A stretch of DNA of 64,000 bases, taken from positions 32,001-96,000 of the IMG/VR virus record IMGVR_UViG_3300026549_000045; one strand, 5' to 3'. The notes under the pieces were generated by a model. That model was not told where the DNA came from, did no database searches, and saw only the letters and a list, made by a program, of their open reading frames with translations. Position numbers and translations under genes: made by a program. This stretch comes from a virus (lineage: Duplodnaviria > Caudoviricetes). Shown piece after piece: positions 6,852 through 15,630 of this stretch (positions are counted from its first letter, which is position 1; every line of letters starts with the position of its first letter).

Positions 6852-7538
6852 ATGAAACATCTGGATATTACAATAGACTTTGAGACCTGCGCCATGACAG
6901 CCAACGCGGCTGTGATGCAGGTTGCAATGGTGCCTTGGCTGAGAGACAACGATGCAGACCCATTCTCGTTTGACGATATGGATATATATGAAGGTTGCGT
7001 GGATCTGAGGACATGCGTGGTGGATGGCTTTGACTTTGACCCAGAGACTATCAAGTGGTGGTCAGAGAGAAACCTAAAGGCAAAGGAGGCGGTGACGAAG
7101 GGAGAACCGAAAGCTGTTGACGACGTGTTGATTGGCATGCTGAACTACATCCGCGAACTCAAAGAGAAGCATGCGCTGACAAGCATCTTTGTATGGTGTC
7201 AGGGCATGGACTTTGACATTGCGATACTGAGGAACCTGTGTCGTAAGTATGGCGTGAAACTTGAAGAGAACATACCGCACACGTCGTTCAGGGATTGCCG
7301 CACGGTGATACTGGAAGCTGCACTGATAGAGGCCAGTCGCAGTCTGAACGGAAAGAGTACACGTGCTAACGGCATCATACTGCCCGAGCAGATACTTGCA
7401 GGCAGCTACGATGTTTACAAGATGTTTGATCCCCTGCCAGAACGCTATTCTGCAGGAAGCGAGGCTCACGACGCACTCTACGATGCCTTGCGCTCAAGTT
7501 GGAACACCTGGCAGGCACTGAAATGGTTGAACGCTTAA
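6852..7538 (+). CDS. DEDDh 3'-5' exonuclease (Rv2179c/DUF5051-like)
   Basis: IDFET, WCQGMDFD, RDCRT, HDALYD motifs. Confidence 0.8.
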   Translation: MKHLDITIDFETCAMTANAAVMQVAMVPWLRDNDADPFSFDDMDIYEGCVDLRTCVVDGFDFDPETIKWWSERNLKAKEAVTKGEPKAVDDVLIGMLNYIRELKEKHALTSIFVWCQGMDFDIAILRNLCRKYGVKLEENIPHTSFRDCRTVILEAALIEASRSLNGKSTRANGIILPEQILAGSYDVYKMFDPLPERYSAGSEAHDALYDALRSSWNTWQALKWLNA

Positions 7539-7551
7539 CAAAAGGAAACGA

Positions 7552-7989
7552 ATGATGAACAATACTATATACATCAGCGGGCCTATCAGCGACCCGACTA
7601 CGAGCCAGCCGAGGACTGGATGGCAGAAGGAATTTCTGGAGGCCGAGGCGAAGTTGCGCCGGATGGGCTTTTCAGTAATGAACCCGGTTGACATTGCGCG
7701 TGATGTGGAGGAAGCCTTCAGGCAGGAGCCAACACGTGCGGACTATATTCTGGCTTGTTTGGAGCGGATGAAAGTGGCACAAGAGACAGGCATACTGCAC
7801 GGCGTGTACCTTATCGGTGATATCGACGCATGCAAAGATTCGCATGGTGTACAGATGGAACTTCACTTGGCAGAGATATTGGGCATCCCGGTATTTGCAG
7901 AGTTCCGCGCTGACAATGAGATATGGACTGACAGTTTCTATCTGAAGTCGGAAAGAACTATAGAAGGGCTGCTGGAAGATAAAGCGTAA
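7552..7989 (+). CDS. DUF4406 / nucleoside deoxyribosyltransferase-like protein
   Basis: IYISGPIS...F.EAE..L...GFSVMNP...SHGVQME. Confidence 0.7.
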   Translation: MMNNTIYISGPISDPTTSQPRTGWQKEFLEAEAKLRRMGFSVMNPVDIARDVEEAFRQEPTRADYILACLERMKVAQETGILHGVYLIGDIDACKDSHGVQMELHLAEILGIPVFAEFRADNEIWTDSFYLKSERTIEGLLEDKA

Positions 7990-9024: not shown

Positions 9025-10179
9025 ATGAAAGCAGATTACATTTACTTTGGCGACGCTGGCATGACCAGCACCAGTGCCAACCATGCGGCGAACATGGCGA
9101 AAGAGAGTGTGAGACACCTGATGGACGAACTGGCAGGTGTGAGTTTCTATGGTACTACGGTGAGCCTATTGAGCAGCGGTGCAGGCGCCAAGCAGAGCAA
9201 GGTCGGCAACACGGCTGAGCAGCTTGACGGCACATATGACAAGCTGAAAACCATCGGCGAGGCCCATGCGCTGATAGCCTGGCTGCGTGAAGCCATCAAG
9301 GCCCGTGAGCGACTGTTGGCAGAGGTGAAGAACATGACGCTGGCAGGGTATTGCAAGACGGTGTTAGGCGGTGTTGAAGTGCCAAAGGCAGACACGAACA
9401 TCGTGGACTGGATGAAGGAGAAGGGTTATACCAAGCCAGACATCAACGGTGAGTTTCCTGATGTGGAGCATAAGCGTATCATTGGCATACCGGTTGCCCC
9501 ATTGGAATTGTTCTGCAAGAAGTTCGGACTGAAGATGCCCGATGCGGTGAAGAAGCAGGAGCCGATGACAGTCGATGACTATATGGCCGGACTGAGTGTA
9601 AAGGATCGTAACCGCATGTTGTTGTTGGAAGCCAAAGCCGCCGTGATTGGCAAGTTCATCCATGAGGATGGAAAACTCGACAAGGAGCGTAAGTCGCTGC
9701 GTGAGGTGCTGTCGCATCCCGTCGGAACACATGGCGAGGGACAGAACATGCTCCTATACCAGTTTGAGCCCACAGTGACGCAGGAGTATGTTGATGGTAT
9801 GTTCTTCCGTCTGGCTGCAGAGCATCGTGCCCTACAGGCAGAGTTGAACGGTATGCTGGCCGAGCGTGACCGTACCATCGAGGCCGACAAGCAGGCTAAG
9901 GCAGCAGAGTTTCAGAAGGCATCTGCAGACTTCTCGCGTGAAATGAGTGTGTTGCAGGATAAGTTGTCGGCATATCTCGTGGAAGAGCAGAGCAAGCTGA
10001 GCAAGATGCAGGACGAATACAATGCCTGGTCTATGGACCAGAAGAACCGCCATCAGGAGTTGTGCGCAAACATGGAGACATGGAAGCTGGCAGAAGCCAA
10101 GCGTATTGCTGGGCTGGGCATCATCATCCCGAACGAGTTGCGTGACATCTATGAGTGGGTGAACGGACTGGGTAAATAG
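9025..10179 (+). CDS. Coiled-coil phage protein directly upstream of the structured RNA
   Basis: 384 aa, GMTSTSANHAANMAKE start, long helical C-terminus. Confidence 0.8.
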   Translation: MKADYIYFGDAGMTSTSANHAANMAKESVRHLMDELAGVSFYGTTVSLLSSGAGAKQSKVGNTAEQLDGTYDKLKTIGEAHALIAWLREAIKARERLLAEVKNMTLAGYCKTVLGGVEVPKADTNIVDWMKEKGYTKPDINGEFPDVEHKRIIGIPVAPLELFCKKFGLKMPDAVKKQEPMTVDDYMAGLSVKDRNRMLLLEAKAAVIGKFIHEDGKLDKERKSLREVLSHPVGTHGEGQNMLLYQFEPTVTQEYVDGMFFRLAAEHRALQAELNGMLAERDRTIEADKQAKAAEFQKASADFSREMSVLQDKLSAYLVEEQSKLSKMQDEYNAWSMDQKNRHQELCANMETWKLAEAKRIAGLGIIIPNELRDIYEWVNGLGK

Positions 10180-10204
10180 TCCATTGGATTTCTTTGACTT
10201 ATTG

Positions 10205-10641
10205 AGACACAGGTAGCCGCAGACTGAATGGATTTCCTGCGAAACTGCGGCGCACCGACAGCGGAGGGTGGTCTTGTTTATAGCACGTGCCAACATTTAC
10301 GGGCTATCGGCAAGTATCAAAAGACAGTTCAGAAGGTCGCGGGTTCGATTCCCGCCTTGCGTGCTAAGCAAGTAGTTCAGCTGGTTAGAACGTTTGAAGG
10401 TTGCAAAAGTTTGCAGGTTCGAGCCCTGCCCCGTCTTGGACGGGTGGCGGAAGTGGTAGACGCGGGTCTTTTTGGTAGATCTACTTATCGCAAAACAAAA
10501 AATGACGTTGCCGCACGACACTCATACGGAGAGGCCGTCGCCTCCCGAGAAGGATCTTGCTCTTGCTGAGTGTGGCAATGGTTCTTGCTTTTGTTCATGC
10601 CTTTGTCGCTGAAATCATCTGCCGTCGCCGGGCCTGTGTCT
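10205..10641 (+). ncRNA. Large structured RNA with two circularly permuted tRNA-like modules
   Basis: Closing stem AGACACAGG/CCTGTGTCT; T-arms GCGGG-TTCGATT-CCCGC and GCAGG-TTCGAGC-CCTGC, each followed by a loop-closed acceptor stem and then a D-arm. Confidence 0.7.
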
Positions 10642-10682
10642 TTTCATAGAATACGAATATTGACAAATACAAAGCTACAATT

Positions 10683-11549
10683 ATGTCAAATACAACTTCA
10701 GACTTAAAACCTATAAAGGGTAAGTGTATCTACACAACCAAAGGTGCCGCACGAGAGTATGGCCGTATAGGCTGTAACTTCTTCAAGGGATGCCCGCATG
10801 AGTGTGAATACTGCTACCTTAAACGTGGTGCGCCATCGGCAGAACTGGGTGGTAATACTGCTGTGCTGAAGAAATGTCTTGTCAACGAAGACAAGGCACT
10901 TGAGATATTCTGCAAGGAGGCACGGAAGCATATTGAAGTGCTTAAAAAGTATGGTGTATTCTTATCGTTCTCAACAGACCCGATGCTGACGGAGACCAGA
11001 GACCTGACGTTCTCTGCCATCAACTTCTGCATCAGTAATGACATCCATGTGAAGGTGCTTACCAAAAATGCGGATTTCATTCTCTACGACCGAATGAAAA
11101 ACCTGTGTGGCTCTACTGTAGCCAGGGACTATGTGGAGTTTGGCTTTACGTTGACAGGGCGTGACGATATGGAACCCAAGGCTTCATCAAACCACGACCG
11201 CATCGAGGCTATGAGGCTGTTGTATCAGCGTGGATTCAAGACTTTTGCCAGTATTGAGCCGGTCATCGACTGGACGCACTCAAAGATGGTTATAGACCTT
11301 TCGCTTGACTGCTGCAACCATTACAAGATCGGGCTTCGCTCTGGTGTGAAGAAAGACTATTATTCCGTATTGCGAAGCGGCATGGCCATTCAGGAAATGG
11401 TGGAGAAGATCGTGGCAGCAGGACGTACAGTCTACCTGAAGGAGAGCACCCGTGCCTTATTGCGCAGATGCTATATAGAAGAAGAGAGTGAGCGCATATT
11501 GAGTAAGACGCTTGACATTGACGGCAATCCATACAAAACAATTAAATAA
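10683..11549 (+). CDS. Radical SAM protein (SplB-like phage family)
   Basis: GCPHECEYCY CxxxCxxC; SFSTDP; ASIEPV. Confidence 0.85.
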   Translation: MSNTTSDLKPIKGKCIYTTKGAAREYGRIGCNFFKGCPHECEYCYLKRGAPSAELGGNTAVLKKCLVNEDKALEIFCKEARKHIEVLKKYGVFLSFSTDPMLTETRDLTFSAINFCISNDIHVKVLTKNADFILYDRMKNLCGSTVARDYVEFGFTLTGRDDMEPKASSNHDRIEAMRLLYQRGFKTFASIEPVIDWTHSKMVIDLSLDCCNHYKIGLRSGVKKDYYSVLRSGMAIQEMVEKIVAAGRTVYLKESTRALLRRCYIEEESERILSKTLDIDGNPYKTIK

Positions 11550-13914: not shown

Positions 13915-15630
13915 ATGGCAGGACTACACGACATCGACAAAAAGGACTGGGAGAGGCTGTTGAAAGACAACGGATTCCAATTCGAGCGGGCGGGTAAGCA
14001 CCATATCTGGAAGCATGAGGACGGCAGGATTATACCTGTGCCTATGGGTCCTAAGATAAGTGCTCCTGTAGCCCGCAGGATGGTGAAGGAGAACAAGCTG
14101 GAGGGTGCCCCCTTCGGATGGAGCGACCTGTGGAAGAACGCCGATGCAAAGGCTCAGGCTATTGAGCAGCAGCGCAAGGAAGAAGAGGAGCGCCGCCTGC
14201 AGGAAAAGGCAGAGCGAGAAGCCAAGGAGCGTGAGGCAGAAGAGCGTCGCCAGAAGGAGGCCGAGCGTCTGAGGAAAAGAGCCGAGGATGCCCGCCGTGA
14301 GAAGGAACAGCGTCAGATAGCAGCTGATGCCGCCAACCGCGAAGCATTGGAGAAAGCCAAGGCTGCACTTGCGGATACTGACGAACAGCAGCCTACAGCA
14401 TCGACAATCCCCACCACTACACCTGTGGCAAAAGCAGCACCAGTTGCCAAGCCTACTGAAACATCAAGCAATTTAACCCCTAAAGCAGTGATTTATATGA
14501 ACGAAAAAAGATTGGAGAACTTCCACGAATACCTCTGTGCGGTCGTGGACTACTATCACAAGAACGGCAAGATCCTAAAGAATTTCTCTTTCCTTGCCAA
14601 GCAGTACAGGGTGAAAGGTATCACCCAAGAAATCTTTAAGAAATACAAGTTGGGCGACCTGAAACCCGGAGAGAAACCCTCACGCAAGCTGTCGGACACC
14701 ATCCGTTTGGAAATGGCCGAGCAGGACATGAAGGCCAGAGAACAGATGCTGGCAGCCTACCAGAAGTCGCAGGACGAAAAGGAGGCCGAACAGCAGCAGG
14801 AGCCTGAGCACGAGCAGACACTGGAGGAACGTATCGACACCTTCGAGGCACGCTTTGACCTGCTTGGCCCTATGTTCGCACAAATAAGCAGTCAGCTGGC
14901 CGAAAGCTACAAGAAGAATTTCGGTCCTCACGCCGACGATTTGCTGGGTAAGGACACATGGCAGGTGCGTCTTTCTCCAGAGCCTTATCTGAACGAGTGG
15001 GCAAACAATGTGGAGTTTGACCTGACAAGGATTGTGTTTGACAATGCCGAACCCGAAGAGGTGAAGATGCTGTTGCCAAAGTGGAACGACAAGATTCTCC
15101 ATGCCTACCTGACGTGGCTCTATGGCGGCAAGGACGGTACGCAGATTAAGCTGGACTTCGACGAGCGCGGCAAGGCTGACTCACAGAACGATGCTCTGAT
15201 AGACCTGTTGCGCGACCAGGGCTTGCTCGACCAGATGATGTTTGTGAAGATAGAGTCGTGGAAAGGCAATGCCCATTGTGTAGCCGTCTATAAGGATGCA
15301 CCCGACATTCTGATGGTCATTGGTGAGGGCGCAACGGACTTCTACACCGTAGCCGATGATATCTGGTACTCTTATTGTGGCGATACGGTACTCTGTCCAG
15401 AGCGTAACTTCAGCTTCGGTGGCTGGGGAACACGTAGCATGGTAGGCTTCTGCCTGCGCCAGATGCTCTCTGAGGATAATCACAAGGCAGCCTTGAAGGA
15501 GCAGCAGAATGTGAGCAAGCAGATGCACGGCAAGCTGATGGACGACATCAATAACTACCGCGACATCTGGCAGATGTATCACGACGACTTCAACAAGCAG
15601 CAGCGTAAGAACATGGTTGATTTTGGATAA
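13915..15630 (+). CDS. Multidomain protein with N-terminal HicA-like domain and coiled coil
   Basis: WERLLKDNGFQFERAGKHHIWKHEDGRIIPVP, then E/R/K coil and P/T linker. Confidence 0.7.
   Translation: MAGLHDIDKKDWERLLKDNGFQFERAGKHHIWKHEDGRIIPVPMGPKISAPVARRMVKENKLEGAPFGWSDLWKNADAKAQAIEQQRKEEEERRLQEKAEREAKEREAEERRQKEAERLRKRAEDARREKEQRQIAADAANREALEKAKAALADTDEQQPTASTIPTTTPVAKAAPVAKPTETSSNLTPKAVIYMNEKRLENFHEYLCAVVDYYHKNGKILKNFSFLAKQYRVKGITQEIFKKYKLGDLKPGEKPSRKLSDTIRLEMAEQDMKAREQMLAAYQKSQDEKEAEQQQEPEHEQTLEERIDTFEARFDLLGPMFAQISSQLAESYKKNFGPHADDLLGKDTWQVRLSPEPYLNEWANNVEFDLTRIVFDNAEPEEVKMLLPKWNDKILHAYLTWLYGGKDGTQIKLDFDERGKADSQNDALIDLLRDQGLLDQMMFVKIESWKGNAHCVAVYKDAPDILMVIGEGATDFYTVADDIWYSYCGDTVLCPERNFSFGGWGTRSMVGFCLRQMLSEDNHKAALKEQQNVSKQMHGKLMDDINNYRDIWQMYHDDFNKQQRKNMVDFG

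What the first reader, a model, noticed from the sequence alone, without database searches (positions are those of the whole stretch)
10205..10641. ~440-nt RNA with two tandem circularly permuted tRNA-like (Y-RNA-like) modules
Module 1: variable AGGTC, T-arm 10339-10355, acceptor hairpin CTTGC-GTGCTAA-GCAAG (10356-10372), TA, D-arm GTTC-AGCTGGTTA-GAAC, closed by TTCAGA/TTTGAA where the anticodon stem would be. Module 2: T-arm 10413-10429, acceptor hairpin CCCGTC-TTG-GACGGG, TG, Leu/Ser-type D-arm GCG-GAAGTGGTAGA-CGC. The order is T-acceptor-D, not D-anticodon-T. The Levitt pair fits only the permuted reading (G15-C48 in module 1, A15-U48 in module 2). Nested outer stems enclose both: TATCAAAAGAC/GTCTTTTTGGTA, CGTGC-CAAC/GTTG-CC-GCACG, GATTTC/GAAATC, AGACACAGG/CCTGTGTCT. 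Known: bacterial YrlA Y RNAs have this permuted topology and usually sit beside Ro60; no Ro60 is recognisable here. Inference: a phage tRNA-mimic RNA, possibly a decoy for anticodon nucleases or tRNA-sensing defences, or a scaffold.
Basis: partly seen in the sequence, partly recalled or inferred. Interest (0 to 1): 0.85.

Follow-up and report, generated by a model that had tools for sequence, protein, structure and literature searches.

The report
Phage RNA carrying two tRNA look-alikes
A rumen phage encodes a conserved folded RNA of about 435 bases that carries two rearranged, unchargeable tRNA look-alikes and always follows one unknown protein gene; this pairing is absent from RNA catalogues and shows no link to Ro60, the protein that normally partners such RNAs.

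Summary
The core observation holds. Window 10206-10640 (+) is a non-coding structured RNA with two tRNA-like modules in the order T arm, sealed acceptor hairpin, D arm. Both are strongly supported by compensatory changes in about 10 diverged homologues. Module 2 is followed by its own local anticodon-like hairpin, not a long-range stem.

The RNA is not a Ro60/YrlA system. No TROVE gene occurs in this complete phage, in five related phage records, or in 60 of 61 likely host-family genomes. The Rsr-binding motif is absent, and the Rfam YrlA scores are 37.9 and 27 bits against a threshold of 69.

It always sits right after a 384-aa helical protein of no known family. That protein family (915 clusters) is followed in Bacteroidales phages and prophages by a homologous RNA with phased six-base repeats. 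Only the 384-aa clade carries the two modules, and their order is swapped in half of its lineages.

My best reading is a Ro60-independent RNA-protein particle that displays tRNA mimics. Its function is untested.

This scan has already noted the same RNA on other DNA (the relative that has rtcB downstream). It has also noted similar twin-mimic RNAs next to DUF7873 genes. I found no paper or Rfam family describing it.

The parts
9025..10179 (+). Gene for the 384-aa helical protein (p384), the candidate protein partner of the RNA
   Evidence: A homologue lies directly upstream of the RNA in every locus that extends far enough to show it. The family has 915 clusters and no Pfam, PHROG or NCBIfam match. 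The model of a 295-aa member has pLDDT 94.5 and no solved fold match.
10206..10640 (+). The whole structured RNA, from the 5' strand of closing stem P1 to its 3' strand
   Evidence: It is conserved end to end in about 10 diverged homologues. No ORF is conserved. Frequent G-U pairs fix the + strand.
10206..10213 (+). P1, 5' strand (pairs with 10633-10640)
   Evidence: 98.8% paired, with two pairs changed on both sides.
10216..10251 (+). P1a hairpin: a 7-bp stem with a conserved loop whose ends are kept across the wide family
   Evidence: 100% paired, with one compensatory pair. The same hairpin design is seen in distant loci.
10255..10264 (+). P2, 5' strand (pairs with 10622-10631)
   Evidence: 79% paired, with five pairs changed on both sides.
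10273..10314 (+). Lineage-specific extra hairpin, found only in the window lineage and L005
   Evidence: Absent or reduced to a mini-hairpin in other lineages.
10329..10397 (+). Module 1, a YrlA-type permuted tRNA mimic: closing stem, 5-nt variable stretch, T arm, sealed acceptor hairpin, U8-A9, D arm, closing stem
   Evidence: YrlA model 37.9 bits, E 1e-6. 93.2% paired, 13 covarying pairs, 0/500 shuffles. G15-C48, G18-G19 and the T-loop are invariant.
10412..10481 (+). Module 2, a tRNA permuted at the variable loop: N48, T arm, sealed acceptor hairpin, U8-G9, 3-bp class-II D arm, then a local anticodon-like stem-loop (10465-10481)
   Evidence: YrlA model 27 bits. 96.8% paired, 14 covarying pairs, 0/500 shuffles. 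The 7-nt loop has U33 and R37 with a variable triplet. The Levitt pair covaries in L026.
10506..10580 (+). 3' domain helix P4 (10506-10516 with 10570-10580), enclosing hairpin P5 (10528-10546) and the first repeat tract
   Evidence: P4 is 97.2% paired in the clade. It is 96.7% paired with all 11 pairs covarying in 47 family members.
10553..10611 (+). Two tracts of six-base phased pyrimidine-rich repeats ending in UG (10553-10569 and 10580-10611), on either side of the P4 3' strand
   Evidence: There are 7 TG-TG pairs at lag 6 against 0-2 at other lags, and 0 of 2000 shuffles reach this. The repeats are the most conserved columns of the wide family.
10622..10640 (+). 3' strands of P2 and P1

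Best explanation
The stretch encodes a non-coding RNA of about 435 nt. It is probably made with, or just after, the upstream p384 message.

A scaffold is shared with a large, uncatalogued RNA family of Bacteroidales phages and prophages. It consists of closing stems P1 and P2, the P1a hairpin, and a 3' domain with helix P4 and two tracts of six-base phased repeats. In this clade the scaffold carries two independently folding tRNA mimics in its variable centre. Both have a sealed acceptor end, so they cannot be charged.

I think the RNA works as a particle with the p384 protein. The protein, predicted to be at least a dimer, would hold the phased repeats. The two modules would present tRNA elbows and one anticodon-like loop to tRNA-recognising factors of the host, such as modification enzymes, RNase P, tRNA-cutting nucleases or sensors. 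Ro60 plays no part.

Shown: the RNA's architecture, its conservation, its strict linkage to the gene, and the absence of Ro60.
Inferred: protein binding, transcription and processing, and what the mimics engage.
For: - Structure: modules and scaffold helices covary well beyond the shuffled and slid controls.
- tRNA likeness: YrlA-model hits. U8, A14, R15-Y48, G18-G19 and the T-loop are kept.
- Modularity: the module order is 1-2 in the window, L003, L005, L011, L024 and L089-L091, and 2-1 in L004, L018, L019, L025, L026 and L092.
- Linkage: a p384 homologue lies directly upstream in every locus that extends far enough to show it. In 55 distant viral loci the gene is followed by a 244-1424 nt gap (mostly 290-660 nt) before the next ATG-started ORF of 60 aa or more. 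A model of the 3' domain finds a match there, on the same strand, in 43 of 55 at E<=1 and about 40 at E<=0.01. It also does so in 29 of 80 bacterial-genome loci at E<=0.01.
- Protein: a confident model with no known fold. A two-copy prediction passed with score 0.49 against a best control of 0.00. That mark was reached by 20 of 30 proteins solved as pairs of one chain and by 1 of 23 solved as single chains. The runs agree in at least 92% of contacts, and partner pLDDT is at least 86. My own alignment was used, so these counts hold only roughly.
- No Ro60.
- tRNA association of the wider family: in 16 of 35 distant loci a tRNA gene starts 8-10 nt after the RNA, and 14 of these are an odd tRNA with a 6-nt anticodon loop.
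Against: - There is no transcript, end-mapping, binding or modification datum of any kind.
- Gene-RNA linkage is synteny only, and could equally mean a cis-acting 3' UTR.
- The modules occur in one clade only. The co-occurrence of the longer 384-aa protein with the modules therefore rests on a single evolutionary event.
- The 3'-domain model missed about a quarter of viral loci and most genome loci. This may reflect low sensitivity of a model built from nine close sequences, or real absence.
- A later check elsewhere in this scan priced a similar 'protein latches onto this RNA' claim, made for DUF7873 loci, at only 22 in 100.
Confidence: 0.55

Rival explanations
1. It is a cis-acting part of the p384 transcript. 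On this reading it is a structured 3' UTR and processing platform. Its tRNA-like modules serve as RNase P / RNase Z cleavage marks or exonuclease blocks, stabilising or releasing the mRNA and neighbouring tRNAs. It would have no trans-acting role.
For: - The RNA begins 8-35 nt after the stop codon, with little room for a promoter in the wide family.
- Genuine tRNAs follow within 8-10 nt in 16 of 35 distant loci.
- The sealed acceptor stems reach 7-8 bp in several lineages. M. smegmatis YrlA, with a 7-bp stem, is cut by RNase P and receives CCA (PMC4201824).
Against: - A scaffold of about 300 nt with an 11-bp covarying helix and phased repeats is conserved across proteins only about 30% identical. 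That is far more than a processing mark needs.
- In L089-L091 a hairpin separates the stop codon from a conserved box just before P1, which hints at a separate start.
- The tertiary-contact nucleotides and the anticodon-like loop shape are under selection.
Confidence: 0.2
2. It is a true YrlA-class Y RNA that works with a Ro60 (Rsr) protein of the host or with a very divergent phage Ro60.
For: The best Rfam matches are to YrlA. Module 1 has exactly the YrlA topology. In relative L005 the RNA is followed by rtcB, as in the Salmonella rsr-yrlBA-rtcBA operon (PMC4201824).
Against: - No TROVE gene in this complete phage or in 5 related records, and no DUF2828 (that model's control rang in none of the 14 reference genomes, so this negative is weak).
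- No TROVE gene in the 5 Bacteroidales assemblies that carry the locus.
- TROVE occurs in only 1 of 61 genomes of the likely host family.
- The 5' motif thought to be involved in Rsr recognition is absent.
- Scores are about half the family threshold.
- rtcB is present in only one lineage and is absent from this genome.
Confidence: 0.05
3. The modules are ordinary or decaying tandem tRNA genes, or a precursor from which a working tRNA is cut out. That tRNA would be built from the D arm and anticodon arm of one module plus the T arm of the next.
For: Rfam's tRNA model scores 32.1 bits (threshold 29) across 10372-10430. In relatives with the swapped order, ARAGORN calls a 91-95 nt 'tRNA' from the D and anticodon arms of module 2 plus the T arm of module 1.
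Against: - The Rfam match lacks the acceptor stem (model positions 7-64). Its 'anticodon stem' exists only in the window lineage.
- ARAGORN finds nothing in the window or in any same-order relative.
- The called acceptor stems are imperfect, use different registers, and are missing in L025. The competing local hairpins are about 95% paired and covary.
- The 'anticodon' differs between close relatives, unlike orthologous tRNA genes.
Confidence: 0.05

Closest known systems
YrlA (Y RNA-like A, Rfam RF02553) with bacterial and mycobacteriophage Ro60/Rsr (Chen et al. 2014, PMC4201824)
   Same: The tRNA-like domain has the order T arm, sealed acceptor-like hairpin, D arm, and in module 1 it is closed by a stem where the anticodon stem would be. 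The elbow nucleotides are conserved. One relative has rtcB next door.
   Different: - Two modules are embedded in a scaffold of about 435 nt, against one module in about 110 nt.
- Module 2 keeps a local anticodon-like arm.
- There is no Rsr-binding motif and no Ro60 gene nearby, in the phage or, with one exception in 61, in likely hosts.
- The neighbouring gene is a different, unknown protein.
- Scores are below the family threshold.
GOLLD and ROOL, large ornate RNAs of phages and prophages that often lie next to tRNA genes (Weinberg et al. 2017, PMC5737381; cryo-EM preprint 10.1101/2024.12.08.627333)
   Same: A large, intricately folded phage or prophage RNA of unknown function, sited among tRNA genes. 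This comparison rests on my own knowledge of these families plus the titles and abstracts.
   Different: No Rfam match to either family at E up to 10. This RNA is strictly tied to one protein gene. Its hosts are Bacteroidales.
Circularly permuted tRNA genes of red and green algae (PMC3978253), and two-piece permuted tmRNA
   Same: The 3' half (T arm and acceptor strand) lies before the 5' half (acceptor strand and D arm).
   Different: Those are processed into working, chargeable molecules. Here the acceptor ends are sealed by short loops with no consistent CCA, and the modules stay inside a larger RNA.
Twin tRNA-mimic RNAs following DUF7873 genes. This is known only from earlier AI notes of this scan (e1-2703945, e1-5984156 and others), not from a paper.
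   Same: By those notes: a gene of unknown function followed at once by a 330-460 nt RNA with two back-to-front tRNA look-alikes and six-base repeats, no Ro60, found in phages and bacteria.
   Different: The p384 family does not match Pfam's DUF7873 model in any of 149 members. Those mimics are described as lacking an anticodon loop, whereas module 2 here has one. I could not test homology of the RNAs.

Membership tests
YrlA (RF02553) | tRNA-like domain: T arm, acceptor-like stem-loop, D arm, in that order | tested here: met
   Partial model matches to both modules, with covariation of every helix.
YrlA (RF02553) | Score at or above Rfam's gathering threshold of 69 bits | tested here: not met
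   37.9 and 27.0 bits. The best score in relatives is 36.3 bits.
YrlA (RF02553) | 5' motif GNCGAAN0-1G, which Chen et al. consider likely to be involved in Rsr recognition (PMC4201824) | tested here: not met
   No occurrence in 10191-10650.
YrlA (RF02553) | Encoded within about 4 kb of a Ro60/TROVE gene, the criterion used by Chen et al. | tested here: not met
   No TROVE in the complete 135-kb genome or in 5 related phage records, and no DUF2828 (that model's control rang in none of the 14 reference genomes, so this negative is weak).
tRNA (RF00005) | Cloverleaf with an acceptor stem formed by the 5' and 3' ends | tested here: not met
   The Rfam match covers model positions 7-64 only and joins the D arm of module 1 to the T arm of module 2. 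The flanking strands do not pair in any register. ARAGORN finds no gene.
ROOL / GOLLD / other Rfam 15 large RNAs | Match to the family covariance model | tested here: not met
   No such match in the window at gathering scores, in 10100-10750 at E up to 10, or in 11 distant family loci at E up to 1.
DUF7873-associated twin tRNA-mimic RNA (this scan's notes) | The neighbouring protein matches Pfam DUF7873 | tested here: not met
   No DUF7873 hit for p384 or for any of 149 family members at E up to 1-10. Remote homology by profile-profile comparison was not tested.
DUF7873-associated twin tRNA-mimic RNA (this scan's notes) | The RNA is homologous to those RNAs | not testable with these tools

The most novel reading that the evidence does not exclude
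The p384 dimer and this RNA form a Ro60-independent particle whose module 2 offers a bait anticodon loop to host tRNA-cutting nucleases or tRNA-sensing defence proteins. The loop keeps the U-turn shape (U33, purine 37), but its triplet has been replaced in nearly every lineage, and the modules have been shuffled, because of an arms race with those host factors. The wider family does the same job with an appended odd tRNA instead of embedded mimics.
Probability: 0.12. Interest if true: 0.9.

Novelty: new variant of a known kind. Interest (0 to 1): 0.72.

Why it matters
tRNA mimicry by Y-like RNAs has been tied to Ro60. Here the same permuted tRNA design, doubled and with one mimic keeping an anticodon-like loop, is built into a much larger RNA. 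That RNA travels with a different, very widespread protein of unknown fold, in phages and prophages of Bacteroidales, the dominant gut and rumen bacteria.

If the pair is a particle, it is an undescribed RNA-protein machine present in hundreds of phage lineages. It would also give a direct way to ask what tRNA mimics are for: which host tRNA-binding factors they capture, and whether phages use them against tRNA-targeting defences. The module swap and the variable loop give natural mutants for such tests.

Tried and rejected
- blastn of the region against 50,697 GenBank phages gave no match.
- The first DNA pattern scan returned two chance matches, L006 and L007.
- Homologues of the downstream radical-SAM gene in L001 and L002 have no RNA upstream, so that gene is not the partner.
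- Coding potential was rejected: the 113-aa ORF is not conserved.
- ARAGORN's tRNA calls in swapped-order relatives were judged chimeric.
- Fold searches with both protein models found only generic helical matches. Foldseek against PDB gave no E<=0.001, and VIA-align wide gave a best Z of 7.6.
- The ESM Atlas gave no usable hit.
- PHROGs, Pfam and NCBIfam gave nothing for p384.
- I could not obtain the Pfam accession of DUF7873. One guess was wrong, and no paper holds the name.
- The sigma-70 promoter and terminator scan gave nothing above chance. It found only a weak hairpin over the p384 stop codon, and Bacteroidota promoters are not covered by that tool.

Full report
**What is there**

The window is part of a 135,134-bp virus record rated complete. 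Between a 384-aa gene (9025-10179) and a radical-SAM gene (10683-11549) lies a stretch with no conserved ORF. The 113-aa frame across it is lost even in near-identical relatives.

ARAGORN finds no tRNA in the window or the genome. The genome's only two T-arm-like elements both lie here. At relaxed thresholds Rfam gives three matches:
- YrlA at 10331-10399 (37.9 bits, E 1e-6).
- YrlA at 10411-10463 (27 bits, E 1.4e-3).
- tRNA at 10372-10430 (32.1 bits). This one lacks the acceptor stem and simply joins the D arm of the first unit to the T arm of the second.

**Homologues**

Protein-anchored and pattern scans recovered about ten distinct variants of the RNA from rumen viral contigs, metagenomes and Bacteroidales assemblies. 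They are L003, L004, L005, L011, L018, L019, L024, L025, L026 and L089-L092, plus near-identical copies L014, L020 and L021. Wherever the contig extends far enough, the RNA follows a homologue of the 384-aa protein at 57-99% identity. The downstream gene varies: radical SAM, RtcB in L005, tRNA-Arg in L011 and L024, and others.

**The two modules**

Module 1 (10329-10397) consists of a 5-bp closing stem, a 5-nt variable stretch ending in C48, the T arm, a sealed acceptor hairpin, U8-A9 and a canonical D arm, then returns to the closing stem. On ten sequences it is 93.2% paired. Thirteen pairs are changed on both sides, including four of the five closing-stem pairs. No shuffle of 500 reaches this, and slid partners give 36-51%. 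L091 adds further compensatory changes in the T, D and closing stems.

Module 2 (10412-10481) consists of U48, the T arm, a sealed acceptor hairpin, U8-G9 and a 3-bp class-II type D arm. It then has a local 5-bp hairpin with a 7-nt loop. On eleven sequences it is 96.8% paired with 14 covarying pairs, 0 of 500 shuffles, and slid partners at 35-47%. In effect, module 2 is a tRNA opened in the variable loop.

- Its 7-nt loop has U at position 33 and a purine at 37 in ten of the eleven aligned sequences (L003, whose hairpin is weak, is the exception). The middle triplet differs in almost every lineage.
- The elbow nucleotides are kept in both modules.
- The Levitt pair is G15-C48 in module 1. In module 2 it is A15-U48, switching to G15-C48 in L026.
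- G-U pairs are common in these helices, which fixes the + strand.

**Module order**

The order is 1-2 in the window, L003, L005, L011, L024 and L089-L091. It is 2-1 in L004, L018, L019, L025, L026 and L092. The modules are therefore self-contained units placed in a variable centre.

In the 2-1 relatives ARAGORN calls a 91-95 nt 'tRNA' made of the D and anticodon arms of module 2 and the T arm of module 1. Its acceptor stems are imperfect, use different registers and fail in L025, whereas the competing local hairpins covary. I read these calls as chimeras.

**The scaffold**

Comparative folding gives five helices:
- P1: 10206-10213 with 10633-10640
- P1a hairpin: 10216-10251
- P2: 10255-10264 with 10622-10631
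- P4: 10506-10516 with 10570-10580
- P5 hairpin: 10528-10546

Together they are 91.9% paired with 17 covarying pairs, 0 of 500 shuffles, and slid partners at 27-47%.

Two single-stranded tracts on either side of the P4 3' strand carry six-base phased pyrimidine-rich repeats ending in UG. There are 7 TG-TG pairs at lag 6 against 0-2 at other lags, and 0 of 2000 shuffles reach this.

**A much wider family**

A profile of the 384-aa protein finds 915 clusters at 50% identity, most of about 295 aa. All are unnamed and none matches Pfam, PHROGs or NCBIfam.
- In 55 distant viral loci (about 25-34% protein identity; many contigs of 90-170 kb) the gene is followed by a 244-1424 nt gap (mostly 290-660 nt) before the next ATG-started ORF of 60 aa or more.
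- By eye the gap has the same design: a closing stem, a P1a-like hairpin and phased repeats.
- A covariance model of the window clade's 3' domain matches on the same strand at the expected place in 43 of 55 viral loci at E<=1, about 40 of them at E<=0.01. It also matches in 29 of 80 loci from bacterial assemblies at E<=0.01.
- On 47 such sequences P4 is 96.7% paired and all 11 pairs covary. This alignment was fitted to the model, so it leans towards the structure.
- The repeats are the most conserved columns.
- Rfam has no family for these RNAs.

The carriers are almost all Bacteroidales, including Prevotella, rumen Bacteroidaceae, Muribaculaceae and Porphyromonadaceae. Some copies sit on complete chromosomes, so some are prophages.

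Models of the two modules find them only in the 384-aa clade. Elsewhere they hit only junctions of real tandem tRNAs.

Many distant loci lie among tRNA genes, often with a tmRNA gene as well. In 16 of 35 a tRNA gene starts 8-10 nt after the RNA. In 14 of these it is an unusual tRNA with a perfect acceptor stem, an encoded CCA and a 6-nt anticodon loop. Some form of tRNA or tRNA mimic thus seems to go with this RNA family generally.

**Not a Ro60 system**

- TROVE is absent from this genome, from five related phage records and from five Bacteroidales assemblies that carry the locus. It occurs in 1 of 61 genomes of the likely host family.
- DUF2828 is absent (that model's control rang in none of the 14 reference genomes, so this negative is weak).
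- The 5' motif that Chen et al. link to Rsr binding is absent.
- RtcB follows the RNA in L005 only and is absent from this genome.

**The protein**

With eight sequences the 384-aa model is mediocre (pLDDT 71). With 149 sequences a 295-aa member folds confidently (pLDDT 94.5, pTM 0.89) into a helical bundle with small sheets. No solved structure resembles it beyond generic helices.

A two-copy prediction passed:
- Score 0.49, best control 0.00.
- That mark was reached by 20 of 30 proteins solved as pairs of one chain and by 1 of 23 solved as single chains.
- The runs agree in at least 92% of contacts, and partner pLDDT is at least 86.
- My own alignment was used, so these counts are rough.

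This supports, but does not show, a symmetric dimer. The 384-aa clade differs from the 295-aa forms by an insert and a longer terminal helix. That it is also the clade with the modules is suggestive, but it rests on one evolutionary event.

**Reading**

The best-supported account is a Ro60-independent RNA-protein pair. An oligomeric protein would hold the phased repeats of a conserved scaffold RNA, which in this clade displays two tRNA mimics. The main rival is a purely cis-acting UTR or processing platform.

What the mimics engage is unknown. Chen et al. showed that YrlA is modified by TruB and DusA, and that a YrlA with a 7-bp acceptor stem is cut by RNase P and receives CCA (PMC4201824). 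The same could be tried here.

**Known or new**

I found no paper or Rfam family for the RNA. A catalogue of 10,006 anonymous viral RNA candidates (PMC10690425) might include part of it, but I could not check.

This scan has noted the same RNA in the L005 phage (e1-5757046, e1-5757062). It has also noted, many times, similar twin-mimic RNAs after DUF7873 genes. The p384 family does not match that Pfam model, and whether the RNAs are homologous is open.

Noticed in passing
window 10188-10205, and the same place in L003, L004, L005, L011, L089-L091: A conserved box of about 16 nt with a TTTGA core lies directly before P1 in the whole 384-aa clade. In L089-L091 a hairpin separates it from the p384 stop codon. 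It may be a Bacteroidota-type promoter element or a processing signal.
   Followed up: partly
L042:3658-3727, and the same place in L034, L047, L048, L050, L052, L053, L056-L058, L060, L061, L072, L082: An unusual tRNA gene starts 9-10 nt after the RNA in a gut-phage clade. It has a perfect 7-bp acceptor stem, an encoded CCA and a 6-nt anticodon loop, and ARAGORN cannot name its anticodon. In L054 and L055 its anticodon arm carries an insert.
   Followed up: partly
L042:1677-2058 and many sister loci: A phage-encoded tmRNA (62.6 bits, above Rfam's threshold), usually with one or two tRNA-Arg genes upstream of it, precedes the p295 gene. The gene-RNA pair sits in an RNA-gene island.
   Followed up: no
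L005:4642-5865: An RtcB RNA ligase gene (Pfam E 7e-62) starts 20 nt after the RNA in this one relative. This echoes the Salmonella rsr-yrlBA-rtcBA operon.
   Followed up: partly
window 10683-11549; L026:1305-2075: A radical-SAM protein follows the RNA here and in L026, and one lies upstream in L004 and L018. The window's copy weakly resembles the PA0069 and spore-photoproduct-lyase families.
   Followed up: partly
window 6852-7538 and 7552-7989: An Rv2179c-like 3'-5' exoribonuclease and a nucleoside 2-deoxyribosyltransferase-like protein lie two and three genes upstream of p384.
   Followed up: no
window 13915-15630: A 571-aa protein has an N-terminal HicA-toxin domain fused to a large unknown region.
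   Followed up: no
L059:1091-1165 and 713-771: Sub-threshold matches to a twister-P1 ribozyme (44.8 bits, threshold 67) and a type I hammerhead (26.3 bits, threshold 34) lie upstream of the p295 gene.
   Followed up: no
window 10216-10251 versus L004, L018, L019: The P1a 3' strand and a copy of the same pentamer inside the loop change together (C to U) in the L004 lineage. This could mean alternative pairing of the 5' strand with either copy.
   Followed up: no
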